Assembly: GCA_965197645.1 (NCBI GenBank)
Contig: OZ240219.1
Location: forward strand, 768,001 to 832,000
Direction of reading: 5' to 3'
Origin: Dehalococcoidia bacterium
GTDB taxonomy: Bacteria > Chloroflexota > Dehalococcoidia > Plut-88900
DNA length: 64,000 bases
Position numbers and translations under genes: made by a program. Positions 28,189-59,703 of the stretch are shown here, one piece after another. How positions within the stretch are numbered: position 1 is the first letter of the stretch; every line of letters begins with the position of its first letter. The notes beneath the pieces were generated by a model that did no database searches, was not told where the DNA came from, and worked only from the letters and a program-made list of their open reading frames with translations.

Positions 28189-28425
28189 CTACCTCGCCAG
28201 CAACGCCTCGATCCTCGCTTGGTTGAAGTCGGTTACCACGTACCCATCGATGTCCCATACCGGAGTGCGTATCCGTCCCGTCAGCTTTCTCAGGGCGTAC
28301 TTGGCCCGGTTGTCCTTGGACACGCTCACCTCTTCGTAGTCGATAGCTTTGTCCGCCAGGAACCTCCTGGCTGCACTACACACCTTTCAGGTACGAGTCG
28401 TGTAGACCTTGATGCGCTTCGGCAT
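28189..28425 (-). CDS. Glutaredoxin/NrdH-like selenoprotein (U13-x-x-C)
   Basis: MPKRIKVYTTRT-TGA-KVCSAARRFL..TP..IDG; SD AGGAGAGG; TGA at 28387-28389; hairpin downstream. Confidence 0.85.
28355..28371 (-). promoter_or_regulatory. SECIS-like hairpin of the glutaredoxin gene
   Basis: GCCAGGA-GGT-TCCTGGC, loop G 23 nt after UGA. Confidence 0.65.
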
Positions 28426-28439
28426 ATCATCCTCTCCTG

Positions 28440-29045
28440 TCACGAAGCCCGGTATATCCCTTCATTCCTTATGTACCGCTCCACGGCCTCAGGCACCAGG
28501 TACCTGATGGACAGTCCCTCGCGGACCCTGCGGCGTATGTCCGACGAACTGATATCCACCTGGATGTTCTCAATGGAGCACACCCGGTCCCTCAAACCAG
28601 GGACCGAATCATCTAGCGCCTGGGTTTCCAGTCTCGTGTAGCCCGGCCTTCTCATCGCGGCCAACCTGCACAGCTGCAGTATCCTATCCGGGCTCTTCCA
28701 CCTATCCAGCTCGGTCAGGGCGTCCAGCCCGATTATGAAGTAGAGCTCAACGCCGCTGCTGAGCCTGCTTGTCAACTCCTCCAGGGTATCGACGGTGTAC
28801 GTGGGGCCATCTCGCTCCAGCTCCAGGGTATCAATGCAAAAGAGAGGATCGCCTTCCAATGCTAGACGCAGCATCTTCAACCTGGTACAGGCTGGGGATA
28901 CATAGCTGGCTTCCTTGAACCGCGGGTTTCCCGCCGGCACGAACATTACCCGGTCCAGCGCCAGCTGCTCCGCCGCCTCCTCAGCGATAATCAGGTGACC
29001 GAGGTGAACAGGATCGAAGGTGCCGCCCAGGATTCCAACTTTCAT
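28440..29045 (-). CDS. nadD: Nicotinate-nucleotide adenylyltransferase
   Basis: GILGGTFDPVHLGHL, TYTVDTL, FIIGLD, ISSSDIR. Confidence 0.95.
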   Translation of the reverse strand: MKVGILGGTFDPVHLGHLIIAEEAAEQLALDRVMFVPAGNPRFKEASYVSPACTRLKMLRLALEGDPLFCIDTLELERDGPTYTVDTLEELTSRLSSGVELYFIIGLDALTELDRWKSPDRILQLCRLAAMRRPGYTRLETQALDDSVPGLRDRVCSIENIQVDISSSDIRRRVREGLSIRYLVPEAVERYIRNEGIYRAS

Positions 29046-29046
29046 T

Positions 29047-30273
29047 TCAGTTCCATTCCAGCTCTTTGCCCCCGATGATAACCGTATCGCCCCCTTTTAC
29101 ACCCGCTTTTTCCAGGGCCTTCTGTACCCCGGCCCGTTCCATCAACGCCGCCACCTGCGCCCTGGCCTCCCAATCTTGCATGTTCGTACCCGATACCAAC
29201 CGCTCGATCTGCTCCGATCGCACTACGAAAGCGTCCCGGTTTCTCTCGACTACAAGTCCCGGGTCCCTCGGGTTCGGTTGATGAACGGTCTCTTCCGGTT
29301 GCTCAGATGTAACACATTCATCGGGAACCTCCTGGACGATAGTTATCACCTTGTCCAGCATCTCCGTAACGCCGATTCCCGTCTCTGCGGACACCTGGAC
29401 CACCGAATGTTTATCGTGGCACTCAAATCCGACAATCCCGTCGGTCAGGTCGGACTTGGTCAGGGATACTATCCGGCGCTTGGTGTCCAGGCCCCGGCCA
29501 TACTTCCTCAGGGCCTCGTCGATCAATTCGTAATCGTTCGCGGCGTCCTCTTGCGTCCCATCGAGGCACAGGAGCAGCGCCCTGGCCCGTTCAGCGTGCT
29601 TTAGGACCTTCAACTCTCCTCCGGCCCAGGTAGAAGGGATCTCCACGAATCCATACTGCTTCCAGTTGTACTCAACCGCCCCCACTATCGGGTCCACGGT
29701 TGTAACCGGATACTCGGCTACCTTGGCCCTAGCGTTTGATAGTCGATTCAACAGGGTCGATTTGCCGCTGTTGGGCAACCCAACAATGGCCACGTCGGAT
29801 ACAGACTTGTAGTCCAGAGTTACCGTTCTTCGGTCACCCTTCTCCCCAGCCTCAGCTATCCGAGGGGCCTGCATGGTCGCCGTGGCAAAGCTCTTGTTGC
29901 CACGGCCCCCGGCGCCCCCTCGAGCCACGATAACCCGCGATCCAGCCTCCACCAAGTCGATAACCCATGAAAGCCCCCTGGCTTTGATAACTGCAGACGT
30001 ACCCACGGGTACACGAACCTCCCGGTCAAGACCAACCCCACCCGACGAGTTCCTTCCTTCACCCGGAACACCATTCTCGGCGACAACCTCTCCCGCGGAG
30101 GATAGATGGCCCAGGCCATAGGCCCCATCCACGCTGATCAGGCAAACCGACCCGCCAGCCCCCCCTCTCCCTCCATCAGGTCCACCGAGCCGGACGTACT
30201 TTTCTCTGCGGAAACTTATAGAGCCCCCTCCACCATCTCCACCTCTCACTTGAATTGTTATTTCATCGATCAA
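29047..30273 (-). CDS. obg: Obg/CgtA GTPase, divergent
   Basis: Gly-rich Obg fold (FRREKYV..GGPDGG), GLPNSGKST, C-terminal DUF1967 (L..AGVK.GDTV.IG); G3 motif degenerate. Confidence 0.85.
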   Translation of the reverse strand: MIDEITIQVRGGDGGGGSISFRREKYVRLGGPDGGRGGAGGSVCLISVDGAYGLGHLSSAGEVVAENGVPGEGRNSSGGVGLDREVRVPVGTSAVIKARGLSWVIDLVEAGSRVIVARGGAGGRGNKSFATATMQAPRIAEAGEKGDRRTVTLDYKSVSDVAIVGLPNSGKSTLLNRLSNARAKVAEYPVTTVDPIVGAVEYNWKQYGFVEIPSTWAGGELKVLKHAERARALLLCLDGTQEDAANDYELIDEALRKYGRGLDTKRRIVSLTKSDLTDGIVGFECHDKHSVVQVSAETGIGVTEMLDKVITIVQEVPDECVTSEQPEETVHQPNPRDPGLVVERNRDAFVVRSEQIERLVSGTNMQDWEARAQVAALMERAGVQKALEKAGVKGGDTVIIGGKELEWN

Positions 30274-30690
30274 TATTCTTCTCTAAGTTAAGAGTGAAGA
30301 TATAACAGTATTAATAGCCTGTCGTTTTATCTAGGTTAGCGCGACGTTTTGGGAGATCTAGGCTGGAAGTTCGTTTTGTGTGTCCCTGCTGTCGGCGTTG
30401 AGACTGAAATAAACCCTGTGCAACCACCGATGTTGGCATGGTTGACATGCTACTTCCGGTCCGGTTGACGGATACGTCGAATGGTATTGGCAACTAACTC
30501 TCTGTCTCCGCTCCACTAAGTGCAGTATACCGATAGTCGACTGGCGGTAATGAGGGTGTAACCATTCGATTTGGCTGTTTAACTGGCACCAACCTCATCA
30601 TAACCTGCAGTTGATTGCAAGTAAGCTGGAGAAATGGCAAACGGAAACGGGTTGAAGGTGAGAAGAACGGGGGGGGCGAGTCGAGGAAGG
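30274..30690. other. Candidate replication origin region between dnaA and obg
   Basis: Non-coding, AT-rich stretch near 30250-30330, adjacent to dnaA; no canonical TTATCCACA boxes seen. Confidence 0.4.
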
Positions 30691-32016
30691 CTAGACGGCT
30701 TCCCGGATCAGTGATAGGACCCGCTTCAAGGTATCGTCCCGCGAGAGCTTGGCGCTGACCCTGCGGCAGGAGGCGGCCACAGACGTTGGCGTCCTGTGCC
30801 CCAACAAAGCTCCGATCCCCATGGCCGACATGCCTAGCTCCTCGTGCAGTAGGAAGATGGCGATGTCTCTGGCTGCCACCAGCTTCTTGTGCCGGCGCTT
30901 GCCGTATAGCTCGTCCGGGGAGAGATCGAAGTGGCGGGCAGCCATCTCTACGATCTCCTCTGCGGATACGTTTCTCTTCTCGATGTCGGTGGCGCCTTGC
31001 AACGCCTCGAAGGCCAGCTCCGCAGTGAAATCGGAGTCGCGGGCGGCGGCGTAGGTCACCACCCGGTGAAGGGCGCCCTCCAGCTGCCTGATGCTACCCC
31101 TAGCTCGGCGGGCGATGGCTTCTATGACCTCTTCGCTGAGCTGGAGCCCCATAGCCTCTGTTTTCGCCGTCAGCATCTCCACCCGGGCCTCCAGGTCCGG
31201 TGTTCGGATGTCTGCCAGCAGCCCGCCCTCGAACCTGGATACCAGCCTTTCGTGGACGGCGGGAATCCGACCCGGGTGACAATCGGCTGCCAGGACTATC
31301 TGCTTGTTGTAGTTGTGCAGGTGGTTGAAGGTGTGGTAGAACCCTTCCTGCGTCTGCTCCTTGGCGCTAATAAACTGAATGTCGTCCAGCAGGAGCACAT
31401 CCAGCTCTCGATACTTGGCTCGAAAGCCCTCGGTGCTTTTCGTTTTGATGCCGGCCACGAGGTCGTTGGTGAACTGCTCGGCACTGGCGTAAAGGACCCG
31501 CATATGGGGGTCGACGGCGTGGCCGATGGCGTGGAGCAAGTGGGTCTTGCCCAAGCCCACGGTTCCGTAGACGAACAATGGGTTGTAGGTCAGGCCGGGC
31601 GCGTCGGTCACCGATCTGGCGGCAGCATAGGCCATCTGATTGAACTCGTTGACGACAAAGCTTTCGAAGGTGTAGCGAGGGTTCAGCCCCCGGGATCGCG
31701 ACCCCCGGGGCGGTGGCGCAGAGACCTCGTCGTCCGCCGATGACGACTCTAGCGGTGTATGCTCCTGACGCAACAGGAACTCGACCGGGATAGGCCGCTT
31801 GAGTATACCTCGAAGGACATCCTCGACCCTGGGCTGCATCCTCTGGCGAAGCCACTCAACTCCAAAGGTGGTGGGCACCCCTACTATGAACTTGTCCTCC
31901 CGGCACTCCAGCCCGACCGTGTCCTTAAGGTATGTTTCGTAGTAAGGCCGCGTGACCTGCAGCTGGAGCTCCCCCAGAGCGGTGTCCCAGATTCTTGCGG
32001 TTTCTTGAGGTTCCAT
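30691..32016 (-). CDS. dnaA: Chromosomal replication initiator DnaA
   Basis: LNPRYTFESFV, YNPLFVYGTVGLGKTHL, LLLDDIQF, TQEGFYHTFN, SRFEGGL. Confidence 0.95.
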   Translation of the reverse strand: MEPQETARIWDTALGELQLQVTRPYYETYLKDTVGLECREDKFIVGVPTTFGVEWLRQRMQPRVEDVLRGILKRPIPVEFLLRQEHTPLESSSADDEVSAPPPRGSRSRGLNPRYTFESFVVNEFNQMAYAAARSVTDAPGLTYNPLFVYGTVGLGKTHLLHAIGHAVDPHMRVLYASAEQFTNDLVAGIKTKSTEGFRAKYRELDVLLLDDIQFISAKEQTQEGFYHTFNHLHNYNKQIVLAADCHPGRIPAVHERLVSRFEGGLLADIRTPDLEARVEMLTAKTEAMGLQLSEEVIEAIARRARGSIRQLEGALHRVVTYAAARDSDFTAELAFEALQGATDIEKRNVSAEEIVEMAARHFDLSPDELYGKRRHKKLVAARDIAIFLLHEELGMSAMGIGALLGHRTPTSVAASCRRVSAKLSRDDTLKRVLSLIREAV

Positions 32017-32340
32017 TAGTTGCTAAAGCCTGCGCCGCCCCGAAAAAAACACAAAAGATCCCCCAAGGAGAAAGCGCATGCTTGAAAAAATCCGCCTCCT
32101 ACAGGCCCCTTATCGACCGCACCGGAAGGCTCCTTCCGGACCTTCCGGACCCCTACGCTCCTGCCTCCCTGCCGACCTTTCGGAGGTCGATTTCTTGGGC
32201 CATCCGACGAGCTTCAAAATCCGTCGGTATAGGGAGGATACCACCCCCGCTTTCGTTGGTGTCAATGGCATTAAAGGCCAATTTTTGCGCTCTTTTACAC
32301 CGATTTTCGAGCCCTGTTCCCAGGCCCAATTTTGGCCCTT

Positions 32341-32369
32341 TTGTACTGCCGAAGCGCCGGCCATATAAT
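32341..32369 (+). promoter_or_regulatory. Sigma70-type promoter of fmt
   Basis: TTGTAC-N17-TATAAT. Confidence 0.7.
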
Positions 32370-32379
32370 GACCTCAAGC

Positions 32380-33330
32380 GTGCTGGATACGGACTCCATA
32401 AGAACGGTTTTCATGGGCACCCCGACCTTTGCGGTGCCTGCTCTGGAAGCCCTGATAGACTCGGGATATCGGGTGGTTGGCGCCTACACCCAGCCGGACC
32501 GGGGTTCGGGTCGTGGCCGAAAACCCGTCGAGTCCCTAGTCAAAGAGCTGGCTCGACAACGAGGTGTCCCGGTCTACCAGACCGCCTCCTTCAAAATGGA
32601 AGATGCCGTCGCTGAGCTGTCCTCTCTGGAGCCGGACCTCATCGTCGTAGCAGCTTACGGTCTGATTCTTCCTCAGGCTGTCCTGGAGATCCCCAGCCAC
32701 GATGTGCTAAACGTCCATCCTTCCCTGCTTCCCCGCCACCGTGGCCCTTCCCCGGTAGCCGGCGCCCTCCTGGCCGGTGACGAAACAACCGGAGTGACGA
32801 TAATGCTCGTCGAGATGCGTGTGGATGCGGGGCCAATACTCAGCCAGACCGAGGTCCCCATCCAGCCGGATGACAACGCCGGTTCGCTCACCGAAAAGCT
32901 GGCCCAACGCGGCGCCGATCTGCTGGTCAAGACCCTGCCCGGCTGGCTGGGGGGCGAGATCGAGCCCCGTGTCCAGGACGATTCCCAGGCAACCTACAGC
33001 AGGATCATCAAGAAGGGGGACGGCGAGATCGACTGGAGTCTTCCCGCGGAGGATATCCGGCGTCGTATCCGTGCCTTCGATCCGTGGCCCGGCGCCTTCA
33101 CCCGATGGCAGGGAAAGCGGCTCAAGGTCCTGGACGCCATCCCCCTCCCCGACGCGCCCCAGCTTCCGCTCGGCAGTGTCTACAGGGGGAGTAACGATAA
33201 CGTCTCCGTGGGGACAGGCACGGGACCGTTGGCTCTTCGGCGGGTCCAGCTGGAGGGCCGTAGACCCGTCGACGTGGATGCCTTCGTCAGGGGATATCCG
33301 ACATTCCCCGGCAGCCTTCTGCCTTCCTGA
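32380..33330 (+). CDS. fmt: Methionyl-tRNA formyltransferase
   Basis: FMGTPTFA, TQPDR..GRG, VAAYG, NVHPSLLPRHRGPSP, DAGPI; GTG start chosen downstream of the -10 box. Confidence 0.95.
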   Translation: MLDTDSIRTVFMGTPTFAVPALEALIDSGYRVVGAYTQPDRGSGRGRKPVESLVKELARQRGVPVYQTASFKMEDAVAELSSLEPDLIVVAAYGLILPQAVLEIPSHDVLNVHPSLLPRHRGPSPVAGALLAGDETTGVTIMLVEMRVDAGPILSQTEVPIQPDDNAGSLTEKLAQRGADLLVKTLPGWLGGEIEPRVQDDSQATYSRIIKKGDGEIDWSLPAEDIRRRIRAFDPWPGAFTRWQGKRLKVLDAIPLPDAPQLPLGSVYRGSNDNVSVGTGTGPLALRRVQLEGRRPVDVDAFVRGYPTFPGSLLPS

Positions 33331-36884: not shown

Positions 36885-37436
36885 ATGTCCTGGATCAAGG
36901 AGCCCGGCGACAACCCGTGGAACGTCTACAATGTCATGTCCCTCAACCCAAAGGCGATGCAAGCCATGGCCCGGTTCGGTCAGGCCGCCGCCCATGGTGG
37001 GTCTCCGTTGACGCTGGCCCAGGAAGAGGCGATAGCGACGGTGGTCTCCGTCATCAACAGGTGCCGCTACTGAACCACTCACCACGGAAAGGCTTTCCGT
37101 GACGCCACCGAAGACAGCGAGGCCGCCAGCCACCTGATGCACGACTACACAACCGCCGACCTCGATCCGCAGACCCGGGGCATACTGGACTATGCAGCCA
37201 AGCTTACGCGGGAACCCTGGTCAGTCCGGGAGGAGGACGTGGTTGCGCTCAGGGATCTAGGCCTCACCGATGAGCAGGTGCTGGCGGTGGTCCTCATCGT
37301 CTGCTACTACTCGTTCCTCACCCGCATAGCCGATGGCCTCGGCATCGATATTGAGGGGGGAATCGCCGAGGAGGTCCAGTCCTGGCTCGCCGGCCCCGCC
37401 AAGGAACAGGACTGGCTGGTAAAAAGGCACGGCTAG
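36885..37436 (+). CDS. AhpD/carboxymuconolactone-decarboxylase-like peroxidase selenoprotein (C-R-Y-U63)
   Basis: EAIATVVSVINRCRY-TGA-TTHHG continues in frame into the ORF at 37137-37436; matches the AhpD N.C.YC..H motif. Confidence 0.9.
37083..37101 (+). promoter_or_regulatory. SECIS-like hairpin of the AhpD gene
   Basis: CACGGAAA-GGC-TTTCCGTG, loop G 18 nt after UGA. Confidence 0.7.
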
Positions 37437-37448: not shown

Positions 37449-38378
37449 GTGGTCATCGATATACATAACCACCTCTGGACCCGGGACGCCCTGCCCGATG
37501 CCTGGTGGAAGATGTACTCCACCTTCTTCTCCACCTACATCCCCGACTCTTCCTTCTCCGGCACCCCCGAGGAGATCGACGCCGGGCTCTTCGAAAAGGC
37601 CTTCGACCCCGACGGCGCCAGTTGTCTGCGAGAGATGGACGAGGCCGCAATCGATGTCACGGTCAACATGCCCGTAGACGTCGATTGCGCTATCGGCGCC
37701 CCCGTCAAGCCCATCGAGCAGCAGAACCAGGAGCTTTCCGACCTGGCTAGAAAGCACCCCGATAGGTATCGCTTCTTCTGCTCCATCGATCCTCGCAAAG
37801 AGAGAGCGCTGGAGTTCGTGGAGAGGGCCGTCGAAGACTGGGGGGCCACCGGTTTCAAGCTCCACCCCAACATGACGGGCCTCTATCCCTGGCACGAGAC
37901 GGCCTACCCCATATACGGAAGGCTCCAGGATCTGGGCCTGCCGGTCCTGGCGCACACCGGCCCCATGTTCGAGCCGCTGGAGCCCAAGTTCAGCCACCCC
38001 CGGGAGTTCGATAAGGTCCTTGCCGACTTCCCCGACCTCACCGTCATAGGCGCCCACATGGGACTGATGTACTGGCGAGACCTGGTCGAGATCGCCCAGC
38101 GGAGACACAACCTCCTCACCGACTTCTCGGCCTTCCAGCACGAGGCCGGCGGCAATCTGGGACGCTTTTGTGCGGTCCTGCGTCGCTGCATCGATGGCTT
38201 CGGTGTCGACCGGGTCCTCTTCGGCTGCGACGGCCCCGTTTGGACCATGTGGTACACCCGCAAGTGGTGGGTTGACCTGATAAAGGGCCTCCCCGACAAC
38301 GCCCCCGAGGGGTTCACCTTCACCCAGGATGAGGTCGACGCCTTGCTCTACGTTAATGCCGGGAGGATTCTGAAATAA
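37449..38378 (+). CDS. Amidohydrolase_2 family protein
   Basis: IDIHNH, GFKLHP, HTG, AHMG, RVLFGCDGP. Confidence 0.88.
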   Translation: MVIDIHNHLWTRDALPDAWWKMYSTFFSTYIPDSSFSGTPEEIDAGLFEKAFDPDGASCLREMDEAAIDVTVNMPVDVDCAIGAPVKPIEQQNQELSDLARKHPDRYRFFCSIDPRKERALEFVERAVEDWGATGFKLHPNMTGLYPWHETAYPIYGRLQDLGLPVLAHTGPMFEPLEPKFSHPREFDKVLADFPDLTVIGAHMGLMYWRDLVEIAQRRHNLLTDFSAFQHEAGGNLGRFCAVLRRCIDGFGVDRVLFGCDGPVWTMWYTRKWWVDLIKGLPDNAPEGFTFTQDEVDALLYVNAGRILK

Positions 38379-38380
38379 TA

Positions 38381-38809
38381 ATGGACACCGTAAGAGTCGA
38401 GACGTTCCGAAACCTCCAGCAGGTAGCCACCACCGTCAATCACTCGTTAGTGGCCGACGAGCCGCCCGGCGCCGGAGATGACCTGGGACCCAACCCCTAC
38501 GAGCTCCTCCTCAGCTCCCTGGGCACCTGAACCACCATCACCCTCTCGCTGTATGCGCGGAGAAAAGAGTGGCCCCTGGAGGGTGTTGTTGCCGAGCTCA
38601 GCCACGAGCGGGTCCACGCCAGGGACTGCCAGGAGTGCGAAGAGAACGATGACACCAGGCTGGACGTCATCCGCATCTATCTCCAGCTAAAAGGCCCTCT
38701 CTCCGAGGAGCAGGTCGAAAGGCTGCACCTGATCTCCCAGCGTTGCCCGGTCCATCGCACCTTGGAAGGCGGCCCCAGGATGTTCACCGAGACCGATCTG
38801 GTCTCATAA
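38381..38809 (+). CDS. OsmC/YhfA-like selenoprotein (U50), absent from the ORF track
   Basis: ADEPP..[45 protein letters not shown]; TGA at 38528-38530 sits at the first conserved OsmC Cys. Confidence 0.9.
38543..38562 (+). promoter_or_regulatory. SECIS-like hairpin of the OsmC gene
   Basis: CTCTCGC-TGTAT-GCGCGGAG, weaker stem; same TGTAT loop as the second UGSC gene. Confidence 0.45.
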
Positions 38810-38843
38810 CCCCTACAGCGACGCTGCAATCACCCGCAAACCG

Positions 38844-38930
38844 GGGAGTCCAGAGGGCTTCCCTCTGGCAGGGGGTTTGGGGGATGTGCCCCAAAAGCAA
38901 ATCGTCCCAGGGTGGTTGGGCGGGAAAACA
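38844..38930 (+). repeat. Repeat family 2 copy (partial)
   Basis: GGGAGTCCAGAGGGCTTCCCTCTGGCAGGGGGTTTGGGGGATGTGCCCC..GGGTGGTTGGGCGGGA. Confidence 0.8.
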
Positions 38931-42463: not shown

Positions 42464-42543
42464 GACTCCGCTCCGTTTCCTTGTTCCCTCTTTACCTCTT
42501 ATGATAAGATTCCCCTTACCGCGCAAATCGTCAGGGGGTGTGC

Positions 42544-43578
42544 ATGACCAGTTCGTCATCGTTCGAAGTGCCCGATTCCGTCGAAGCCATTGAGTTCTAC
42601 TATCGCGAGGGCTTGACCGACGGACTTCCCGTGGTGCCTCCAACCCCCGAGAGAGTTGCCGAGTTTCTGAGCTACGTCAGAAAGGAACCTGGTGACGTCA
42701 TCGGCTCGGTGCCGGCCCGCCATAGAGTGATCACCGCCGATAAGATCGCCATCAACGCCATCATGGCCGGGTGCCTTCCCGAGTACATGCCTGTCCTGGT
42801 CACCGCCATCGAGGCCATGTCCGACGAGAGCTTCAATCTACACGGCACCTCCGCCAGTACTGCGGGCACGGGGCACATGGTCATAGTCCATGGGCCTATC
42901 TCCCGGGAACTGGACATCAATCACGCCAACAATCTGTTCGGGCCTACAAAGCGCTCCAACGCTACCATCGGGCGGGCGCTGCGCCTCATAATCATGAACG
43001 TAATCGGTTCCATCCCGGGGGTGCTGGACAAATCGACCTTCGGGCACCCGGGCAAGTACTCCTACTGCATAGCCGAGGACGAAGAACTGAGCCCCTGGGA
43101 GCCGTTGCACGTCGAGCGGGGGCTGCCCCTGGAGGCCAGCGCCGTCACTGTGTGGGCCGCCAATGCACCCCACCAGTTCGATGACCACGGGCACAACCAT
43201 GTGGAAGACATCTTGACCACTGTGGCCACCTCCATGCTGGGCCAGGCGTATCCCGGCGGCCCCGAGCACATGGTGATCCTCAGCCCCGAGCTCGTCGGTA
43301 ACATCCGTGAGTCGGGCTGGACCAAGCGGCAGGTCAAGGAGTTCCTCTACGAGAAGTCCAAGCGGCCCGCCTCCTTCTGGGCCGATCTTCGAGGCGACGG
43401 CAGCATCTTTAGCAGCGAGGGACCGGTGTCGGAGGGCGAAGAGATACCCGCCGTCGCAAGTCCGGACGGCATCATGGTACTGGTGGCCGGCGGCAGCGCC
43501 GGGGCCTTCTTCTGCAGCATCATCCCCTGGGGCGCCGGGTTCGGCACCAGGTCAGTAACCAGACAGATAACCGTCTAA
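42544..43578 (+). CDS. Uncharacterised UGSC-associated protein (paralog 1)
   Basis: TDGLPVVPPT.ERV, AINAIMAGC.PEY, NATIGRALRL, G.PGKY...AE; directly upstream of UGSC gene 1. Confidence 0.8.
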   Translation: MTSSSSFEVPDSVEAIEFYYREGLTDGLPVVPPTPERVAEFLSYVRKEPGDVIGSVPARHRVITADKIAINAIMAGCLPEYMPVLVTAIEAMSDESFNLHGTSASTAGTGHMVIVHGPISRELDINHANNLFGPTKRSNATIGRALRLIIMNVIGSIPGVLDKSTFGHPGKYSYCIAEDEELSPWEPLHVERGLPLEASAVTVWAANAPHQFDDHGHNHVEDILTTVATSMLGQAYPGGPEHMVILSPELVGNIRESGWTKRQVKEFLYEKSKRPASFWADLRGDGSIFSSEGPVSEGEEIPAVASPDGIMVLVAGGSAGAFFCSIIPWGAGFGTRSVTRQITV

Positions 43579-43615: not shown

Positions 43616-44164
43616 ATGGTAGTAGAGACAAGAGCCCCGTCCATCACCGTGATGGACCCCAGGGCCGAGCCCGTTCCTACCGAGGCCTCGATGGCCGCCA
43701 GGCCTGAGACCCTCCACGGCAAGGTGTTGGGCCTCCTGGACAACAGCAAGAACAACGCCAACGAGCTGGCAAAGGCGATCGGCGACCTGCTCCAAGAGCG
43801 GTTTGAGATCAAGGAGATCAAGGTTGCCACCAAGCCCGACGCCTCCAGGCCGGCCCCCGCCGAAATCATGGAGGACCTGGCCAACGGTGTCGACTTTGCC
43901 GTCGTCGCAGTCGGGGACTGAGGGTCCTGCAGTCAGTGCAGTTTGCACGACGGAATCGAGCTGGAAAAGCGGGGCGTGCCCGCAGCGGTGATCATCACCA
44001 GCGAGTTTATCGTTCCCGCCAAGGCCACGGCCAAGTCCCAAGGCATACCCGACTACCCCTTCGCCATTGTGCCCCATCCCATAGGCAGCCTCACCGATGA
44101 GGGCCTCAAAGAACGGGCCAGCGAGGCGCTTCCCCAGGTCCTGAGCATTCTGGACCAGAAGTAG
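43616..44164 (+). CDS. UGSC-family selenoprotein 1 (U102-G-S-C-x-x-C)
   Basis: VAVGD-TGA-GSCSQCSLHDGIELEKRGVP; ORFs 43616-43921 and 43943-44164 are in one frame. Confidence 0.9.
43932..43951 (+). promoter_or_regulatory. SECIS-like hairpin of UGSC 1
   Basis: GTC-A-GTGCA-GTT-TGCAC-GAC, loop G 20 nt after UGA. Confidence 0.65.
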
Positions 44165-54363: not shown

Positions 54364-54392
54364 GAGGGAATCGTTAGATCGAGGAGTATGAG

Positions 54393-55412
54393 ATGAAGGT
54401 CGGTTTACTGTATGACCTGCGCAATCCACCCCAGTGGTACAGACCCTTCCCGGACCTGTACGCCGAAACGCTCGAGCACATCGTTGCCGTGGAGGCCCTG
54501 GGCTTCGATGCCGTCATGTTCACGGAGCATCATTTCGATCCCGACGGCTATCTGCCCTCCCTGTTGCCCATGATGGCGGCCGCAGCAGCCAGGACCAGTT
54601 TGGTCACCATCGGGACCGATGTGTTTCTCGCGCCCTTCGTTCACCCCGTCCGATTCGCAGAGGACTGTGCGGTGGTGGACATCCTCTCCAACGGTCGGCT
54701 CCTCCTCCAGGCGGGGGAGGCCTATCGGCCCCAGGAGTTCGAGGCCCTGGGAGTTGAGAAGACGCATCGTGGAAGCCTGACGGAAGAGACCCTGGACATC
54801 ATCCGGCGTTGCTGGACGGAAGACACCTTCGACTACGAAGGGCGTCATTACCGGCTCAAGGGGGTGCACGTTTCGCCGAAGCCGGTCCAGCAGCCCCATC
54901 CACCCCTCTACTTTACAGCCGACACCGGCAGGCCGTTGGAGCGAGCGGTGCGCATGGGTTTCCATGCCGCTACAGCCCACGGCGTGACCAGCGGGCCGGA
55001 CCCCTCCGAGTGGAAGCGCTGGCATGATGGGTGGACGGACAAGCTGAGGGAGTTCGGACGGGACCCTCGGGAGTTCAAGTGCAGCACTATCCTGAACCTC
55101 TTCGCCGCCGAGGACCCGGAGAAGGCGTGGGAGGAACACAAGGAGGGAATACTGCACGTGTTGAACTCCTACAGCGTGGAAGGCGGAGACTCTACGCCGC
55201 CATTGGAAACACCCGAGGCGATCCCCAACTGGCGTAAGATTTTCCAGACCCCCAGCGACTGCGTAAAGTATATAAACGAGGTGTACGGGTCGGCGCCCCC
55301 CGATTACGTGCTGCTATGGGGTACGAGGCCCGGGATGTCCTACAACAAGAGCCTGGAGTACCATCGACTATTTGCCCAGCAGGTGCTCCCTGGCATTCGG
55401 GGTCCAACCTAG
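54393..55412 (+). CDS. LLM-class flavin-dependent oxidoreductase
   Basis: LGFD..EHHF, HPVRFAED.AVVDILSNGR, PKPVQQPHPP. Confidence 0.9.
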   Translation: MKVGLLYDLRNPPQWYRPFPDLYAETLEHIVAVEALGFDAVMFTEHHFDPDGYLPSLLPMMAAAAARTSLVTIGTDVFLAPFVHPVRFAEDCAVVDILSNGRLLLQAGEAYRPQEFEALGVEKTHRGSLTEETLDIIRRCWTEDTFDYEGRHYRLKGVHVSPKPVQQPHPPLYFTADTGRPLERAVRMGFHAATAHGVTSGPDPSEWKRWHDGWTDKLREFGRDPREFKCSTILNLFAAEDPEKAWEEHKEGILHVLNSYSVEGGDSTPPLETPEAIPNWRKIFQTPSDCVKYINEVYGSAPPDYVLLWGTRPGMSYNKSLEYHRLFAQQVLPGIRGPT

Positions 55413-55502
55413 CAGGAGACGGCCTCAAGGGACCGGGTCGACGGGCCGACGCCGGCAGATGGATTACGGACTTTAAAGTTAAAGCATCAGCAGGAGGAGC
55501 TT

Positions 55503-55862
55503 ATGAAGGTCTTCAACATCGATGATGTCCAAAAAGAGGACGCTAGCGCGCCTATCTTCACCGGGGGGAGCGTAACCATGCAACGCCTGCTGGTGGCGGG
55601 GGACTCGGAGGACTTCGCCGTAGGGCTGGTCAACTTCAGCCCCGGGGCCAGGACCAAGCTCCACATTCACGAATCCGATCAGATAGTCTTCGCCACCGCC
55701 GGTCGGGGCACCTACGCCACCGAGCATGAGGAGAATGAGGCTGTCGCCGGCACCATGGTCCTCTTCCCCAAAGGTGAGCGACACTGGCATGGGGCCACCC
55801 CCGACTCCTCCTTTTCACAGATCTCCTTCCTCCTGCCGGGTGAAACTACCGTCGTGGAGTAG
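55503..55862 (+). CDS. Cupin domain protein
   Basis: F.PGARTKLHIH..Q, GERHWHGA. Confidence 0.88.
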   Translation: MKVFNIDDVQKEDASAPIFTGGSVTMQRLLVAGDSEDFAVGLVNFSPGARTKLHIHESDQIVFATAGRGTYATEHEENEAVAGTMVLFPKGERHWHGATPDSSFSQISFLLPGETTVVE

Positions 55863-55913
55863 GTCGGCGCCCACGACGTCTATGACCGGGTCTAAAATAA
55901 AGTCTTAACGTCT

Positions 55914-56471
55914 GTGCCGGGCCTGATTACAGGGAGGAGACGACCAATCGCAACCAACAATGTTCCCATAACCAACTCTTACTGGGTTGCCCACGGGCAG
56001 CTGCTGGCTGGGGGATATCCGGGTGGACTCGATGGAAAGGACATGGACCGGGAAGTTCGAGCCATAGTGGAAGCGGGAGTAAGGGTCTTTGTCGATCTGA
56101 CCCAGGAGGCCGAACAGCCTCCCTATTCTCCGACCCTCTCCGATATCGGCCGGCAGCTGGAAACGCCCGTTCAGCACCTTAGAGTGCCTGTCAAAGACCT
56201 GGGGATACCGACCGCCTCGGAGATGGACGGTATCTTGAGGGTCATCGATGAGTCGGTGCGAGACGACAAGCCGGTATACGTCCACTGCGTGGGTGGTATA
56301 GGCAGGACGGGCACCGTGGTCGGGTGCTATATGGTCGAGCAGGGAATGACCGGCTCGGAAGCGCTGCAGGAAATAGAGGCTCTCCGCAAGCCCACCCCCT
56401 ACAGCCGGGTAAACTCCCCGGACAACCCCGGCCAACGTGAAATGGTCCTCTCTTGGAGCGGGCGCGGATAG
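55914..56471 (+). CDS. Dual-specificity/tyrosine phosphatase family protein
   Basis: VHCVGGIGRTGT CX5R motif, PVKD acid loop. Confidence 0.85.
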   Translation: MPGLITGRRRPIATNNVPITNSYWVAHGQLLAGGYPGGLDGKDMDREVRAIVEAGVRVFVDLTQEAEQPPYSPTLSDIGRQLETPVQHLRVPVKDLGIPTASEMDGILRVIDESVRDDKPVYVHCVGGIGRTGTVVGCYMVEQGMTGSEALQEIEALRKPTPYSRVNSPDNPGQREMVLSWSGRG

Positions 56472-56660
56472 CCGATAGGCGGCCAAGATGCAAGCGCTAG
56501 CAACAAGACCCGCCGAACGCAAGACTACCCATCCCCTTGCCGTCCTCACCCCTCTCAGCTATTTTTATAATACCCGGATGTCCAAACGGTCGCTGGAACA
56601 ATGCAATCAAAAACAAGCACCTCCAGCCACAAAACAATCAGACCCGATAAGAGGTAAGCC

Positions 56661-57746
56661 TTGACATCGTCACCGGACTCCCGTTTTGAGCTTCCCGATA
56701 CAGTCGAGGCCATCGAGTTCTACTACGAACAGGGCCTCACCGATGGCCTTCCAGTAATACCTCCCACCGAGGAACGGGTGCTTCAGTTCCTGGAAGCCGC
56801 AGGGGTGGAGCCGACCGAGGTGATAGGCACCCGGCCCAGCCGCAACTGGATCGTAACTGCCGATAAGGTTGCCATTAACGCCATCATGGCCGGCTGCCTC
56901 CCGGAGTATGCCCCTGTTGTCGTAGCCTCCATCAGAGCTCTACTGCGCCCCGAGTTCAACGCCTCAGCCATTTCCGAGACTGCCGGCACCTCCGCGCCAA
57001 TGATCATGGTCAACGGGCCCATTCGCCACGAGCTCGATATCAACTCCGGTTGGAACCTGTTCGGGCCTGGCTGGAGAGCCAACGCCACTATCGGCCGCGC
57101 CCTCCGGTTGGTCCTCATCAACGTCTGCAACGAGGTGCCGGGGGTGAGGGACAAGTCCACCTTCGGCCAAGCCGGACGCTACACCTCCTGCATCGCTGAA
57201 AACGAGGAGGCCAGTCCCTGGCAGCCCTATCACGTCGAGAAAGGCTTCCCGATAGAGTCCAACACTACAGGCCTCTTCGCCGTGTTTCCTCCCATGGAGA
57301 TCTACAATCAGTCGGACAACCAGCCGGAGCAGATCCTGGAGAGCCTGTGCCATATCATAGCCGCCGACGACAATTGCCAAGGCGAACTGGTTCTTATCCT
57401 CAGCCCTGAGCATGCCCAGACCATAGCCTCTGCAGGGTGGAGCAAAGACCAGGTAAAGGAATATATGGTTGGGAGGATCACCGACTTGTACCCCAAACTG
57501 TCGATCCAGGCCGAAAAGGTCGGCCCGGCCGCCGCGCGGTTCGGCAGTACCCCAACAGAAGCAAGAGACACAGGAGGCAGACGTAGCTCGGGTGATAGCG
57601 GCCCGGTTGTCCCAATCCGTGCCGAGGGTATCATCCTTCTGGTGGCTGGCGGCGAAGGTGGTGGCCACTCCTCAATTCTTCCTACATGGGGCAGATCAGC
57701 GATAGCCCACTCCGTCATCGAGCCCATTACGATTGCACCAAGGTGA
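56661..57746 (+). CDS. Uncharacterised UGSC-associated protein (paralog 2)
   Basis: Clear paralog of 42544-43578 (TDGLPVIPPT, AINAIMAGCLPEY, NATIGRALRL). Confidence 0.8.
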   Translation: MTSSPDSRFELPDTVEAIEFYYEQGLTDGLPVIPPTEERVLQFLEAAGVEPTEVIGTRPSRNWIVTADKVAINAIMAGCLPEYAPVVVASIRALLRPEFNASAISETAGTSAPMIMVNGPIRHELDINSGWNLFGPGWRANATIGRALRLVLINVCNEVPGVRDKSTFGQAGRYTSCIAENEEASPWQPYHVEKGFPIESNTTGLFAVFPPMEIYNQSDNQPEQILESLCHIIAADDNCQGELVLILSPEHAQTIASAGWSKDQVKEYMVGRITDLYPKLSIQAEKVGPAAARFGSTPTEARDTGGRRSSGDSGPVVPIRAEGIILLVAGGEGGGHSSILPTWGRSAIAHSVIEPITIAPR

Positions 57747-57852
57747 TGTAACCTGCCCGCTGGACCGTTACGGTTCTCACACCCAATTGCTCAACTTGGT
57801 ATAATCCGTCTAGTGACGAGCTATTTCGGGTAGCGGGTCAAGGAGGCGAAAG

Positions 57853-58983
57853 ATGAAGAACGGATTCAAGATCATAGACGGCGACGGCCACATGCAAGAG
57901 CCCATGGATATATGGGAGAACTTCACGGAGCCCGCCTTCAAAGATAGGATCCCCAAGGTTATCGGGCACGTGGGCAAGACGGAGTTTCAATACGGTCCCT
58001 GCGAGATCTTTCCAGAGGGCCAAGCGACCGCCTTCACCCAGGAGGTCTACGAGGACGTGGAAGAGCGCTACGGCGAAGCGTACCGTAGCTGGTGGAGCCT
58101 GCCCAGCCGCCTGGACCACATGGACGACGAAGGTGTGGACGTCCAGGTCTGCTTCCCCACCAACGGAGCCCTGGCCACGGGCAACTCCGTCAAGGACATC
58201 GATCTGCAGTCGGCCCTGGTGCGAGCCTACAACAACTGGGCCATCGATTTCTGCCGGGACTCCTCGGGCAGGGTACTCTTCGTGGCGCTGGCAAGTCCGG
58301 GTGGCGGTGAAGAGGCCCTGCGAGAGGTGAAGCGCGTCGCCTCCAATCCGGCGGTGGCGGCGGTGACCCTGGCGGGGTTCATAGACCTGTCGGAAGGCCA
58401 GAAGTGGTGTGATGAGAAGTTCGAGGGCCTATGGCAGCTGCTGGAGAGCGAGGGCCTGCCCGCCGCCTTCCATGGCGGAGGCTCCCAGCGTTCCCTCTTT
58501 GGCCAGTACCAGGGAGAGATGGCTACGGTAGCCCACGCCATCTCCTTCCCCGTGGACCTGATGTTGTCCCTGGCCGACCTGATCTTCGGCGACGTGCTGG
58601 AGCGCTATCCCAACCTGCGGTGCGGGTTCTACGAGGCCAACGCCGGGTGGGTGCCCTACTGGCTGGCCCGCCTGGACGACCACGGCACCGGCAGACAGGC
58701 CCGCTTTATGCACGGAGCCTCGGTATCGATGAAGCCCAGCGACTACTTCTACCGTCAGTGCTCGGTATCATGCGACGCCGATGAGGGCACGCTGCCCCTG
58801 GTGGTAGACTATCTGGAGGGTAGTAACATAATCTTCAACACGGACTACCCCCACCCGGACGCTCCCTTCCCGGGTGCGGTGGACGAGCTGCTGGAGCGGC
58901 CTATCCCCGAGGATGCAAAGCGAAAGATCCTGTGGGACAACTCGGTGGACCTGTACAGGGACCGGATACAGGTCAGTGTTTGA
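57853..58983 (+). CDS. Amidohydrolase_2 family protein
   Basis: IDGDGH..EP, RAYNNW, FH, EANAGW, TDYPHPD. Confidence 0.88.
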   Translation: MKNGFKIIDGDGHMQEPMDIWENFTEPAFKDRIPKVIGHVGKTEFQYGPCEIFPEGQATAFTQEVYEDVEERYGEAYRSWWSLPSRLDHMDDEGVDVQVCFPTNGALATGNSVKDIDLQSALVRAYNNWAIDFCRDSSGRVLFVALASPGGGEEALREVKRVASNPAVAAVTLAGFIDLSEGQKWCDEKFEGLWQLLESEGLPAAFHGGGSQRSLFGQYQGEMATVAHAISFPVDLMLSLADLIFGDVLERYPNLRCGFYEANAGWVPYWLARLDDHGTGRQARFMHGASVSMKPSDYFYRQCSVSCDADEGTLPLVVDYLEGSNIIFNTDYPHPDAPFPGAVDELLERPIPEDAKRKILWDNSVDLYRDRIQVSV

Positions 58984-59151
58984 ACAGTGTTCTGGCAGCG
59001 TTTAAACGGCGTTCCGGCGAGCTGTAGAAGCCTACAGGCATAAAAGAGGTTAGAACGCAGCGGAAAGCCGTGAACGGCCCGGCGGATGCCGGTAAGCACC
59101 GTCTGTTATAATCTGAAGTCGATAGGAATGGCAATTTGATAGGAGGGTGGT

Positions 59152-59703
59152 ATGACTACAGGCTCTCTCAACAAGCTGATAGCCCTGGACCCCAGGGGTG
59201 ATACCGGCCCAGCCGAGTCGATCTCCATGGCCCCCAGGCCCGACTCGCTGGACGGAAAGCGCATCGGCCTGCTCCACGATCAGCGGCTCAACGGCGACAA
59301 TCTTCTGTGGATGGTCACCGACCTGATCAAAGAGCAGTACGAGACCGGTGAGGTCAACTTCTGGGCCAGGCCCAACATATCGGACATCTCCCCACCGGAC
59401 CTCATGGCGGAGATGGCCGCCAAGGCTGACGTGAGCTTGATAGCGATCGGGGACTGAGGGTCCTGCAGCACGTGCTGTATGCACGACGCACTCACCCTCG
59501 AAGACATGGGCGTCCCCACTGCGGTAATCATAAGCGACCAGTTCTTACCGGGCGTTCAGGAGATATCCAAGTCTCGCGGCGCCCCTGATTACCCCTACGT
59601 GGTGGTCAAGCACCCCATCGGCAGCCTTGACGAGGATACCTTGAAGGAACGGGCCAGGGACGCCCTGCCCCAGGTGTTGAACATCCTTCTCAACGGCAAG
59701 TAG
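59152..59703 (+). CDS. UGSC-family selenoprotein 2 (U102-G-S-C-x-x-C)
   Basis: IAIGD-TGA-GSCSTCCMHDALTLEDMGVP; paralog of 43616-44164 with UGA at the same codon. Confidence 0.9.
59471..59485 (+). promoter_or_regulatory. SECIS-like hairpin of UGSC 2
   Basis: CGTGC-TGTAT-GCACG, loop G 20 nt after UGA. Confidence 0.6.

What the first reader, a model, noticed from the sequence alone, without database searches (positions are those of the whole stretch)
28189..59703. Five hidden UGA-recoded selenoprotein genes within about 32 kb
Seen: five genes have an in-frame TGA exactly at a redox-Cys position, with family-typical sequence continuing beyond it. They are the glutaredoxin (28387), AhpD-like (37071), OsmC-like (38528) and two UGSC genes (43919, 59455). 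Each TGA is followed by a stem-loop whose apical G lies 18-23 nt downstream, and two of the loops are identical (TGTAT). Known: bacterial Sec insertion uses this UGA plus downstream SECIS layout, and these families have Sec-containing members. Inference: this organism has an unusually dense selenoproteome that standard annotation would split or miss. No selA/B/C/D genes are in this window.
Basis: partly seen in the sequence, partly recalled or inferred. Interest (0 to 1): 0.85.

Follow-up and report, generated by a model that had tools for sequence, protein, structure and literature searches.

The report
Five real selenoprotein genes, known families
Five genes in this stretch of a Dehalococcoidia genome each use an in-frame TGA to insert selenocysteine at a redox-active site; the call is correct, but all five belong to selenoprotein families described years ago in a bacterial class already listed as selenoprotein-rich.

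Summary
Each of the five genes has exactly one in-frame TGA. A Pfam domain above its cut-off runs across it, at the column where relatives carry Sec or Cys.

The same 3.21-Mb contig carries selA, selB, selD (itself with a TGA) and tRNA-Sec with anticodon tca. TGA also ends 461 of 1528 long ORFs, so the code is not reassigned.

Each TGA is followed by a hairpin with a loop G 18-23 nt downstream. On single sequences these hairpins are only weak to moderate evidence. Comparison gives the support: the UGSC hairpin shows compensatory changes across 49 sequences, and 56 of 57 UGSC loci from several phyla use TGA.

My own genome scan accepts about 31 Sec genes in total, so the genome is selenoprotein-rich. 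All five families were already in the 2008 ocean-metagenome survey. BSepDB (2026) lists Dehalococcoidia MAGs with 46 and 49 selenoprotein genes. This is a correct but ordinary finding: new members of known kinds.

One extra: both window UGSC genes lie beside an uncharacterised gene of about 350 codons. That gene is adjacent to UGSC across phyla and is fused to a UGSC domain elsewhere in this genome. The fusion may be the one printed in 2008.

The parts
28189..28425 (-). Glutaredoxin-like selenoprotein gene, 78 codons, U13 in a U-x-x-C motif. The TGA is at 28389-28387.
   Evidence: Read-through translation. PF00462 scores 47.3 bits against a cut-off of 22.9 over residues 5-61. Of 9 readable relatives' loci, the column holds U in 5 and Cys in 4.
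28355..28371 (-). SECIS-like hairpin of the Grx-like gene: 7 bp, loop GGU, -10.7 kcal/mol.
   Evidence: Hairpins at the same offset, with different stem sequences and loops GUU/GUA/AGUUA, occur in 5 Sec-containing relatives (L034, L036, L038, L039, L043).
36885..37436 (+). AhpD/CMD-like ('peroxidase-related') selenoprotein gene, 183 codons, C60-x-x-U63. The TGA is at 37071-37073.
   Evidence: PF02627 scores 47.6 against 23, and TIGR01926 scores 107.1 against 81.8. U aligns with the second Cys of CxxC in PDB 2oyo_A and 6k40_A. In relatives the column holds U in 6, Cys in 2 and another residue in 2.
37083..37101 (+). SECIS-like hairpin of the AhpD-like gene: 8 bp, loop GGC, -8.3 kcal/mol.
   Evidence: The same position in L046, L047 and L048 has stems GGAGG/CCUCC, GGGGC/GCUCC and GCAGA/UCUGC.
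37449..38378 (+). Amidohydrolase (PF04909) gene packed between the AhpD-like and OsmC-like genes, with gaps of 12 and 2 nt. The three genes probably form one operon.
   Evidence: Coordinates. Pfam score 132.8 bits. The operon is inferred from spacing only.
38381..38809 (+). OsmC-like selenoprotein gene, 142 codons, with U50 and a second conserved Cys122. The TGA is at 38528-38530.
   Evidence: PF02566 scores 62.8 against 27.5. U aligns with Cys of PDB 9wo1_A. In relatives the column holds U in 2 and Cys in 9.
38543..38562 (+). SECIS-like hairpin of the OsmC-like gene: 7 bp with one bulge, loop UGUAU, -6.5 kcal/mol.
   Evidence: Orthologs L058 and L059 have a 5-bp hairpin CCUCU/AGAGG at about the same place. 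This is the weakest of the five.
42538..43578 (+). Uncharacterised 346-codon 'partner' gene directly upstream of UGSC1. It matches no Pfam or NCBIfam family and has an invariant Cys79.
   Evidence: It is 34% identical to residues about 209-484 of the 561-aa UGSC fusion protein of the same genome. It lies upstream of UGSC in 52 of 57 loci.
43616..44164 (+). UGSC-family selenoprotein gene 1, 182 codons, motif G-D-U102-G-S-C. The TGA is at 43919-43921.
   Evidence: PF24696 scores 195 against 25, and NF041046 scores 151.1 against 125. The TGA is kept in orthologs of all 11 same-family genomes. RNA-library contigs bridge the TGA.
43932..43951 (+). SECIS hairpin of UGSC1: 8 bp with one bulge, loop GUU, -7.1 kcal/mol.
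   Evidence: Family-wide covariation of the core 7-bp stem is shown.
56661..57746 (+). Paralog of the partner gene (46.6% identical), two genes upstream of UGSC2.
59152..59703 (+). UGSC-family selenoprotein gene 2, 183 codons, U102. The TGA is at 59455-59457. A 96%-identical copy lies at genome 2775177-2775731.
   Evidence: PF24696 scores 180.9, and NF041046 scores 141.1 against 125. The copy is shown.
59471..59485 (+). SECIS hairpin of UGSC2: 5 bp, loop UGUAU, -6.5 kcal/mol.
   Evidence: It is one row of the alignment scored.

Best explanation
All five are working selenoprotein genes. During translation SelB, loaded with Sec-tRNA(Sec) (anticodon UCA), binds the hairpin that starts 12-18 nt after the UGA. 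It delivers selenocysteine in place of termination.

Sec replaces the reactive Cys in each protein:
- the N-terminal Cys of the CxxC motif in a glutaredoxin-like thiol-disulfide oxidoreductase;
- the second Cys of CxxC in an AhpD/CMD-type peroxidase-related protein;
- the first of the two conserved Cys in an OsmC-type hydroperoxide reductase;
- the first position of UxxC in two UGSC proteins of unknown function.

What is shown: the frames, family membership, Cys/Sec correspondence, the machinery, conservation of the TGA, and covariation of the UGSC hairpin. What is inferred: actual selenium incorporation, SelB binding, and the enzymatic roles.
For: 1. Each frame has one TGA, with family-typical sequence on both sides. 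Pfam domains above their cut-offs span each TGA.
2. Cys/Sec columns match. Grx relatives: 5 U and 4 C of 9. AhpD relatives: 6 U, 2 C and 2 other of 10. OsmC relatives: 2 U and 9 C of 11. UGSC1 orthologs: 11 U of 11. PDB chains 9wo1_A, 2oyo_A and 6k40_A carry Cys there.
3. The machinery is on the same single contig: selA 547.7 bits, selB 346.8 bits, selD 379.7 bits with its own in-frame TGA, and tRNA-Sec 66.4 bits with anticodon tca.
4. In 41 related genomes, 67 of 69 UGSC matches carry exactly one TGA. 56 of 57 genome-contig loci use TGA at the motif, in Dehalococcoidia, Nitrospinota and Bacillaceae. The 57th is a spurious partial match.
5. UGSC hairpin across 49 distinct sequences: 94.2% of cells paired, against 88.8% in shuffles (0 of 500 reach it). 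11 cells have changes on both sides, against 1.7 (0 of 500). Pair 19-29 is UA 40, GU 7, AU 2. Pair 21-27 is CG 47, GC 2. Sliding the partner by 1 to 3 columns drops pairing to 6-62%.
6. TGA is an ordinary stop in 461 of 1528 long ORFs.
7. Contigs from two RNA libraries of another study match the window across the UGSC1 TGA, with 0 and 2 differences, both away from the TGA.
Against: - No direct evidence of selenium in the proteins.
- On single sequences the hairpins are not special in this 61% G+C genome. Folding energy matches the Cys-codon controls (Fisher p = 0.40). The contiguous-stem hairpins of UGSC1 and OsmC are matched by more than 20% of controls.
- The selenoprotein-specific NCBIfam models are below their cut-offs for three genes: Uxx_star 40.5 against 66, AhpD_rel_CFYUT 51.4 against 175, and OsmC_like_Se 44.5 against 95.
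- Rfam matched nothing at these sites at gathering threshold.
- For the AhpD and OsmC TGAs the independent DNA contigs show no listed difference. But 181 difference rows were not displayed, so identity there is not proven.
- The covariation counts come from related sequences, and the stem lies in conserved codons.
Confidence: 0.93

Rival explanations
1. The TGAs are true stops. On this view the genes are pseudogenes or recent nonsense mutants, and only the N-terminal fragments are made.
For: TGA is a normal stop in this genome: 461 of 1528 long ORFs end with it. Three of the five hairpins are within chance on single sequences.
Against: The TGA and the protein sequence after it are conserved at 61-82% identity in other genera of the family. 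The catalytic residue itself would be lost. Five independent nonsense hits, each exactly on the redox Cys, is not credible. The Sec machinery is complete.
Confidence: 0.02
2. The TGAs are sequencing or assembly errors for TGC/TGT.
For: The genome is a metagenome-assembled single contig with 6.35% estimated contamination. I did not see reads at the AhpD, OsmC, Grx and UGSC2 codons.
Against: The same TGA occurs in independently assembled genomes of other genera. For UGSC1 it also occurs in contigs from RNA libraries of another study. Errors would not fall only on Cys codons of known selenoprotein families.
Confidence: 0.01
3. UGA is read through, but another amino acid is inserted. That could be Cys or Trp by a near-cognate tRNA, or Cys via mis-charged tRNA-Sec when selenium is scarce. 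The products would then be full length but hold no selenium.
For: Nothing here measures selenium. That such substitution occurs in other Sec-decoding organisms is recalled, not checked in any call.
Against: The genome keeps selA, selB, selD and tRNA-Sec together with about 31 such genes. The position-specific hairpins covary. That is the signature of SelB-dependent decoding, not of leaky termination.
Confidence: 0.04

Closest known systems
UGSC-containing selenoprotein family (Pfam PF24696, NCBIfam NF041046; Zhang and Gladyshev 2008, PMC2398784)
   Same: Same motif G-D-U-G-S-C. Both window genes score above both curated cut-offs. The family is nearly always Sec rather than Cys: 255 Sec against 21 Cys forms in the 2008 table (passage seen), and 67 of 69 matches here.
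   Different: Nothing essential differs. [quoted passage not shown] My AlphaFold model (pLDDT 89.5) is instead a parallel alpha/beta, flavodoxin-like fold with Sec at a strand-helix junction. It gives only generic matches, TM 0.30-0.46.
AhpD-like / CMD-like selenoproteins (CxxU), GOS 'AhpD-like 1/2'
   Same: CxxU motif with Sec at the second Cys. PF02627 and TIGR01926 are above their cut-offs. The family is listed in PMC2398784 and PMC9312934 (passages seen).
   Different: It is below the cut-off of the one NCBIfam selenoprotein equivalog (NF041238, 51.4 against 175), so it is a different subfamily from that model.
OsmC-like selenoprotein (GOS; NCBIfam NF041052)
   Same: OsmC fold family with Sec at the first conserved Cys. 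The family is listed in PMC2398784 with 5 Sec forms.
   Different: It scores 44.5 against a cut-off of 95 for NF041052. The closest solved relative (9wo1_A) is a 400-aa fusion protein with Cys.
Grx-like (UxxC) selenoproteins
   Same: Glutaredoxin domain with UxxC. The family is listed in PMC2398784.
   Different: It reaches no NCBIfam cut-off. The best is TIGR02196 YruB-family at 62.4 against 88.55.
Bacterial SelB/SECIS decoding as in E. coli fdhF (recalled textbook case)
   Same: A hairpin immediately downstream of the UGA, inside the coding sequence, with a G in the apical loop about 20 nt from the UGA. selA, selB, selD and selC are present.
   Different: The stems are short, 5-8 bp. SelB binding was not tested.
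Selenoprotein-rich Dehalococcoidia MAGs in BSepDB (PMC13326102, Table 2)
   Same: Same class, by the titles of the nearest records. Large selenoproteome.
   Different: My scan gives about 31 genes against 46 and 49 there. My scan is less sensitive, and I do not know whether this genome is in that database.

Membership tests
Bacterial Sec-decoding trait | selA, selB, selD and tRNA-Sec are present in the genome | tested here: met
   TIGR00474 547.7 bits, TIGR00475 346.8 bits and TIGR00476 379.7 bits, all over their cut-offs. RF01852 66.4 bits. ARAGORN calls tRNA-SeC (tca) at 214533-214631.
Bacterial Sec-decoding trait | a SECIS hairpin directly downstream of the in-frame UGA | tested here: met
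   Hairpins are present at all five sites. Covariation supports the UGSC hairpin, and stems vary but the position is conserved in Grx and AhpD relatives. Single-sequence significance is weak for OsmC and UGSC1.
Bacterial Sec-decoding trait | selenium is actually incorporated at the UGA | not testable with these tools
   This needs 75Se labelling or mass spectrometry.
UGSC family (PF24696 / NF041046) | score above the curated cut-offs and a U/C-G-S-C motif | tested here: met
   195 and 180.9 bits against 25. 151.1 and 141.1 bits against 125. The motif is seen.
AhpD/CMD (PF02627; TIGR01926 peroxidase-related) | score above the cut-offs, and a CxxC-type motif with Sec at the second Cys | tested here: met
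   47.6 against 23, and 107.1 against 81.8. Aligned to 2oyo_A and 6k40_A.
NF041238 AhpD_rel_CFYUT (seleno)protein equivalog | score above the cut-off of 175 | tested here: not met
   51.4 bits, and only the C-terminal half of the 357-position model matches.
OsmC (PF02566) | score above the cut-off, and two conserved Cys positions | tested here: met
   62.8 against 27.5. U50 and C122 align with the Cys residues of 9wo1_A.
NF041052 OsmC_like_Se | score above the cut-off of 95 | tested here: not met
   44.5 bits.
Glutaredoxin (PF00462) | score above the cut-off, and a CxxC-type motif at the N-terminus of helix 1 | tested here: met
   47.3 against 22.9, with the motif U-K-V-C. The helix position was not modelled.
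NF041212 Uxx_star Grx-like (seleno)protein | score above the cut-off of 66, with Sec three residues from the C-terminus | tested here: not met
   40.5 bits. Here Sec is residue 13 of 78.

The most novel reading that the evidence does not exclude
The UGSC selenoprotein may be one half of a two-part enzyme. The other half would be the uncharacterised protein of about 350 residues encoded beside it (window 42538-43578 and 56661-57746).

Evidence for:
- The partner lies directly upstream of UGSC in 52 of 57 loci from Dehalococcoidia, Nitrospinota and Bacillaceae.
- In 41 genomes the two occur together in 19. UGSC is alone in 1, the partner is alone in 0, and neither is present in 21.
- The partner is fused to a UGSC domain in a 561-aa protein of this same genome.
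- It has an invariant Cys, no Pfam or NCBIfam model and no clear solved fold.
- At least 7991 database clusters match it, and every source name among the 120 listed is 'hypothetical protein'.

UGSC resembles the Sec-bearing stretch of GrdB weakly (TIGR01917, E = 7.5e-5). The pair could therefore be a new substrate reductase built like the GrdB/PrdB systems.

Caveats: a fusion of UGSC to a domain called 'Unknown_1' was printed in 2008 (PMC2398784, section 9 read; its figure is in a supplement I could not open). Also, 3 of the 7 partner paralogs in this genome have no UGSC within 3 kb.
Probability: 0.5. Interest if true: 0.45.

Novelty: new member of a known kind. Interest (0 to 1): 0.3.

Why it matters
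For annotation: ordinary gene callers cut these five genes, and about 26 more in this genome, into fragments or drop them. That hides much of the organism's thiol/selenol redox equipment.

For biology: it adds one more closed Dehalococcoidia genome to a class that a 2026 database already ranks among the richest in selenoproteins. The 2026 review I searched names only Thermodesulfobacteriota, Synergistota and Clostridia as most enriched, and holds neither 'Chloroflex' nor 'Dehalococc'.

The conserved UGSC-partner pair gives a concrete handle on a selenoprotein family that is abundant in the ocean and whose function has been unknown since about 2007.

Tried and rejected
1. My first coding-potential filter required coding signal in the 15 codons after the TGA. 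It missed the Grx gene and both UGSC genes, because the hairpin distorts codon use there, so I dropped that criterion.

2. Folding energy of the downstream 45 nt, used as a SECIS test, gave no signal (Fisher p = 0.40).

3. Of 40 candidate TGA read-through ORFs outside the window, 11 were rejected.
- Nine were two neighbouring genes in one frame, or had the domain on one side of the TGA only: L153, L157, L158, L159, L160, L162, L163, L164, L165.
- Two matched no family: L155 and L161.
- Four more stay unresolved: L138 (no family), L144 (RNase H), L152 (MFS) and L154 (nucleoside hydrolase).

4. No further Sec gene turned up in the window. The other in-frame TGA candidates at window 46535, 61911, 63084, 34574, 39407 and 60533 look like adjacent genes or non-coding upstream stretches.

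5. The partner protein has no convincing solved relative. Foldseek's best was TM 0.24-0.28 to class I fumarate hydratase. VIA-align's best was Z 6.4 over 85 residues.

6. The UGSC protein has no PDB sequence match at E <= 1.

7. A prediction of the UGSC-partner complex was not obtained, so binding is untested.

8. The RNA-library contigs did not cover the AhpD and OsmC TGAs, and contigs cannot show expression level.

9. Rfam at gathering threshold found only the two tRNAs in the window.

10. Literature. 'alcohol dehydrogenase' has 0 occurrences in the four selenoprotein papers searched. A library search for selenocysteine + zinc-dependent alcohol dehydrogenase + selenoprotein gave two papers that look irrelevant by title.

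Full report
**What is there**

The window is positions 768001-832000 of a single 3,211,320-base contig with 60.8% G+C. By the record titles of the nearest relatives' loci it belongs to an uncultured Dehalococcoidia bacterium, phylum Chloroflexota.

Under table 11 each of the five genes appears as two short ORFs. Reading TGA through gives five uninterrupted frames with exactly one TGA each:
- a 78-residue glutaredoxin-like protein (28425..28189, minus strand, U13 in T-U-K-V-C);
- a 183-residue AhpD/CMD-like protein (36885..37436, U63 in C-R-Y-U);
- a 142-residue OsmC-like protein (38381..38809, U50);
- two UGSC proteins (43616..44164 and 59152..59703, both with U102 in G-D-U-G-S-C).

The start codons are supported by orthologs that begin with the same residues.

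**Family membership**

Pfam domains span each TGA, above their gathering scores:

| Gene | Pfam family | Score (bits) | Cut-off |
|---|---|---|---|
| Grx-like | Glutaredoxin | 47.3 | 22.9 |
| AhpD-like | CMD | 47.6 | 23 |
| OsmC-like | OsmC | 62.8 | 27.5 |
| UGSC1 | UGSC | 195 | 25 |
| UGSC2 | UGSC | 180.9 | 25 |

In NCBIfam the two UGSC genes pass the 'UGSC family (seleno)protein' equivalog (151.1 and 141.1 against 125). The AhpD-like gene passes TIGR01926 (107.1 against 81.8). The selenoprotein-specific models for Grx-like, AhpD-related and OsmC-related proteins are matched only below their cut-offs. These three genes are therefore members of the broad families, but not of those particular curated subfamilies.

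**Cys/Sec correspondence**

I searched 41 related genomes in six frames with each protein and aligned the fetched loci.

- UGSC: 67 of 69 matches carry exactly one TGA. One is a 47-residue fragment with a TAG, and one has no stop. All 11 orthologs from the 11 other genomes of the same family have U at the aligned column.
- Grx: 10 of 22 matches carry a TGA. Two fetched loci were mis-extracted and dropped. Of the 9 relatives' loci I could read, 5 have U and 4 have Cys at the column.
- AhpD: 11 of 22 matches carry a TGA. Of 10 distinct relatives' loci, 6 have U, 2 have Cys and 2 (distant CMD members) have Glu.
- OsmC: 4 of 14 matches carry a TGA. Of 11 relatives' loci, 2 have U and 9 have Cys. 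One of those nine has its TGA at the second conserved Cys instead.

Against solved structures, U50 of the OsmC-like protein aligns with Cys in 9wo1_A. U63 of the AhpD-like protein aligns with the second Cys of C-x-x-C in 2oyo_A and 6k40_A. That these Cys residues are the reactive ones in OsmC/Ohr, AhpD and glutaredoxins is recalled knowledge of those families. No call tested it.

**Machinery and genetic code**

The same contig carries selA (547.7 bits), selB (346.8 bits), selD (379.7 bits, with its own in-frame TGA at residue 18) and a tRNA-Sec with anticodon tca (66.4 bits in Rfam, and called by ARAGORN). None of them is in the window.

Of 1528 long, high-GC3 open frames, 776 end in TAG, 461 in TGA and 291 in TAA. 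TGA is therefore an ordinary stop, and a global reassignment is excluded.

**The hairpins**

Two loops are TGTAT. I tested whether this exceeds chance.

- In 3000 in-frame Cys codons of long ORFs of this genome, a contiguous-stem hairpin with a loop G in the right place and at least as stable occurs in about 2% (Grx), 4% (AhpD) and 10% (UGSC2). It occurs in more than 20% for UGSC1 and OsmC.
- The plain folding energy of the next 45 nt is indistinguishable from 1500 controls (Fisher p = 0.40).

On this genome's own sequence, then, the structures are weak to moderate evidence. The comparative evidence is stronger.

- In 49 distinct UGSC sequences the 7-bp stem (columns 16-22 with 26-32, loop G-U-N) is paired in 94.2% of cells.
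- There are 11 cells with changes on both sides. Pair 19-29 is UA 40, GU 7, AU 2, and pair 21-27 is CG 47, GC 2. None of 500 shuffles reaches these values.
- Slid registers pair in only 6-62% of cells.
- The compensating changes alter the encoded residues (Cys to Ser or Gly, His to Leu) while keeping the stem.
- For the Grx-like and AhpD-like genes, Sec-containing relatives have hairpins at the same offset with different stem sequences.
- The OsmC hairpin is the least supported.

These sequences are related, so the shuffle counts are not probabilities.

**Errors or pseudogenes?**

The TGAs recur in independently assembled genomes of other genera.

Public runs from other studies also hold this DNA. 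Contigs from two libraries on record as RNA match the window across the UGSC1 TGA: one of 295 nt with 0 differences, and one of 354 nt with 2 differences, both elsewhere. Both have more than 31 letters on each side of the TGA.

DNA contigs from two further studies cover the AhpD, OsmC and UGSC1 genes, and no difference at the TGAs appears among the 40 rows shown. But 181 rows were not shown, so that is not proof.

**Genome-wide picture**

I scored every in-frame TGA by dicodon coding potential on both sides. I then put 40 candidates outside the window through Pfam, and 8 of those 40 through NCBIfam as well.

Twenty-five have a family domain across or abutting the TGA:
- GrdB x3 and GrdA;
- an ArsC-like protein and a rhodanese;
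- AhpC/TSA x4 and DsbA x4;
- an Rdx/SelW-like protein;
- an FtrB double selenoprotein (NF041072, 212.2 against 160);
- DUF1989;
- a 561-aa UGSC fusion, and a third UGSC that is 96% identical to UGSC2;
- two PrdB-like proteins;
- a thioredoxin-NHL protein;
- two zinc alcohol dehydrogenases;
- DsrE.

With selD and the five window genes this makes about 31. Four more are unresolved and 11 were rejected. The scan is home-made and certainly incomplete.

Five of the 31 fall within 31.1 kb, where 0.30 is expected. In 20,000 random placements a cluster of five or more arose in 0.5%. Other clusters of three or four exist at about 257-284 kb, 2775-2803 kb and 2857-2861 kb. The clustering is real but modest, and I have no explanation beyond operons and paralog expansion. 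The window also holds dnaA and gyrB.

**Comparison with what is known**

- All five families are in the 2008 ocean-metagenome selenoproteome: AhpD-like (CxxU), UGSC-containing (UxxC; 255 Sec and 21 Cys forms), OsmC-like and Grx-like (PMC2398784, passages and section 9 read). They are also in later reviews (PMC9312934 and PMC13188914, passages).
- 'Selenoprotein-rich' is defined as six or more genes. The largest isolate selenoproteome is given as 39 (PMC5029168, passages).
- Metagenome-derived records are 57-63 (PMC13188914, passages).
- BSepDB's Table 2 puts two Dehalococcoidia MAGs, with 49 and 46 genes, in the top ten (PMC13326102, section 11 read).

I confirmed that the AhpC/TSA domain spans its TGA.

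The finding is therefore correct, and it consists of new members of known kinds.

**The one thing that goes further**

The 346-codon ORF directly upstream of UGSC1, and its 46.6%-identical paralog near UGSC2, match no Pfam or NCBIfam family.

- Both are 34-35% identical to the C-terminal two thirds of the 561-aa UGSC fusion protein elsewhere in this genome.
- A full-length copy lies directly upstream of UGSC in 52 of 57 loci from several phyla. One more is cut off by the locus end, and 4 have none, of which one has a short flank and two are partial UGSC matches.
- In the 41 related genomes both genes are present in 19, UGSC alone in 1 (a 320-contig assembly), the partner alone in 0, and neither in 21. 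Kin are not independent.
- The family is large: 7991 of the 8000 scored clusters match at E <= 1e-10, and every source name among the 120 listed is 'hypothetical protein'.
- It has an invariant Cys79 in the motif M-A-G-C.
- It folds with confidence (pLDDT 83.4, pTM 0.85) but has no clear solved relative.
- The protein-atlas search found one cluster at 0.89 in which 16% of members carry the UGSC domain.

Against a strict coupling, 3 of the 7 partner paralogs in this genome have no UGSC within 3 kb.

The 2008 paper already states that UGSC is fused to a conserved domain 'Unknown_1'. Its figure is in a supplement I could not open, so I cannot say whether it is the same domain. I saw no mention of the conserved gene pair in the UGSC passages of the four papers I read for that term. 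Eight papers in the library hold the term.

The UGSC model itself (pLDDT 89.5) is a parallel alpha/beta, flavodoxin-like fold with Sec at the end of a strand, just before a helix. It is not the Trx-like fold guessed in 2008.

**Verdict**

Five genuine selenoprotein genes (confidence 0.93). Novelty is low and interest is 0.3.

Noticed in passing
genome 2857715-2858800 and 2859933-2861018 (outside the window; L150, L151), and G002 loci L176, L177: Four zinc-type alcohol dehydrogenase genes in two genera have a TGA at residue 38 (G-V-U-H-S). Tandem and distant paralogs have the Cys of G-V-C-H-S-D there. From memory, that Cys is the catalytic-zinc ligand. The other 80 of 84 matches in 41 genomes have no TGA. 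'alcohol dehydrogenase' does not occur in the four selenoprotein papers searched. This may be an undescribed selenoprotein family.
   Followed up: partly
window 42538-43578 and 56661-57746: A conserved, uncharacterised 'partner' gene sits next to UGSC genes and is fused to UGSC at genome 2251577-2253262. See the section on the most novel reading.
   Followed up: yes
genome 2676931-2677350 (L144): An RNase H (RVT_3) gene has an in-frame TGA at residue 15, in the conserved D-G-x-S-R-G-N-P-G stretch, and the domain spans it. It could be a pseudogene, an error or an unusual Sec site. Relatives were not checked.
   Followed up: no
genome 103549-104826 (L152) and 363215-364171 (L154): An MFS transporter and an inosine-uridine nucleoside hydrolase each have one in-frame TGA inside the Pfam domain. 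Neither family is on the selenoprotein lists I saw. Unresolved.
   Followed up: no
genome 1494195-1494806 (L139): A DUF1989 (urea-amidolyase-associated / TMAO-demethylase-like) protein has a TGA at residue 100 inside the domain. I counted it among the 31, but its Cys correspondence was not checked.
   Followed up: no
window 38840-38895, just after the OsmC-like gene: A palindromic repeat of about 50 nt has 67 further BLAST hits across the genome. Its depth is about 300, and many contig ends fall here in the public runs. It looks like a REP-type dispersed element.
   Followed up: partly
window 59152-59703 versus genome 2775177-2775731: UGSC2 has a 96%-identical protein copy (95% DNA identity over 573 bp), while the flanks are only partly similar (82% over 819 bp of the partner gene). 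This is a recent duplication rather than an assembly repeat. The copy sits next to a PrdB-like Sec gene.
   Followed up: partly
window 25788-32016: gyrB, obg, a nucleotidyltransferase and dnaA flank the Grx-like gene, so the window probably lies at or near the replication origin.
   Followed up: no
genome 1202713-1203150 (L136): A ferredoxin-thioredoxin-reductase-like protein has two in-frame TGAs. It matches the NCBIfam 'FtrB family double-selenoprotein' above its cut-off (212.2 against 160). The 2008 paper reported this kind.
   Followed up: partly
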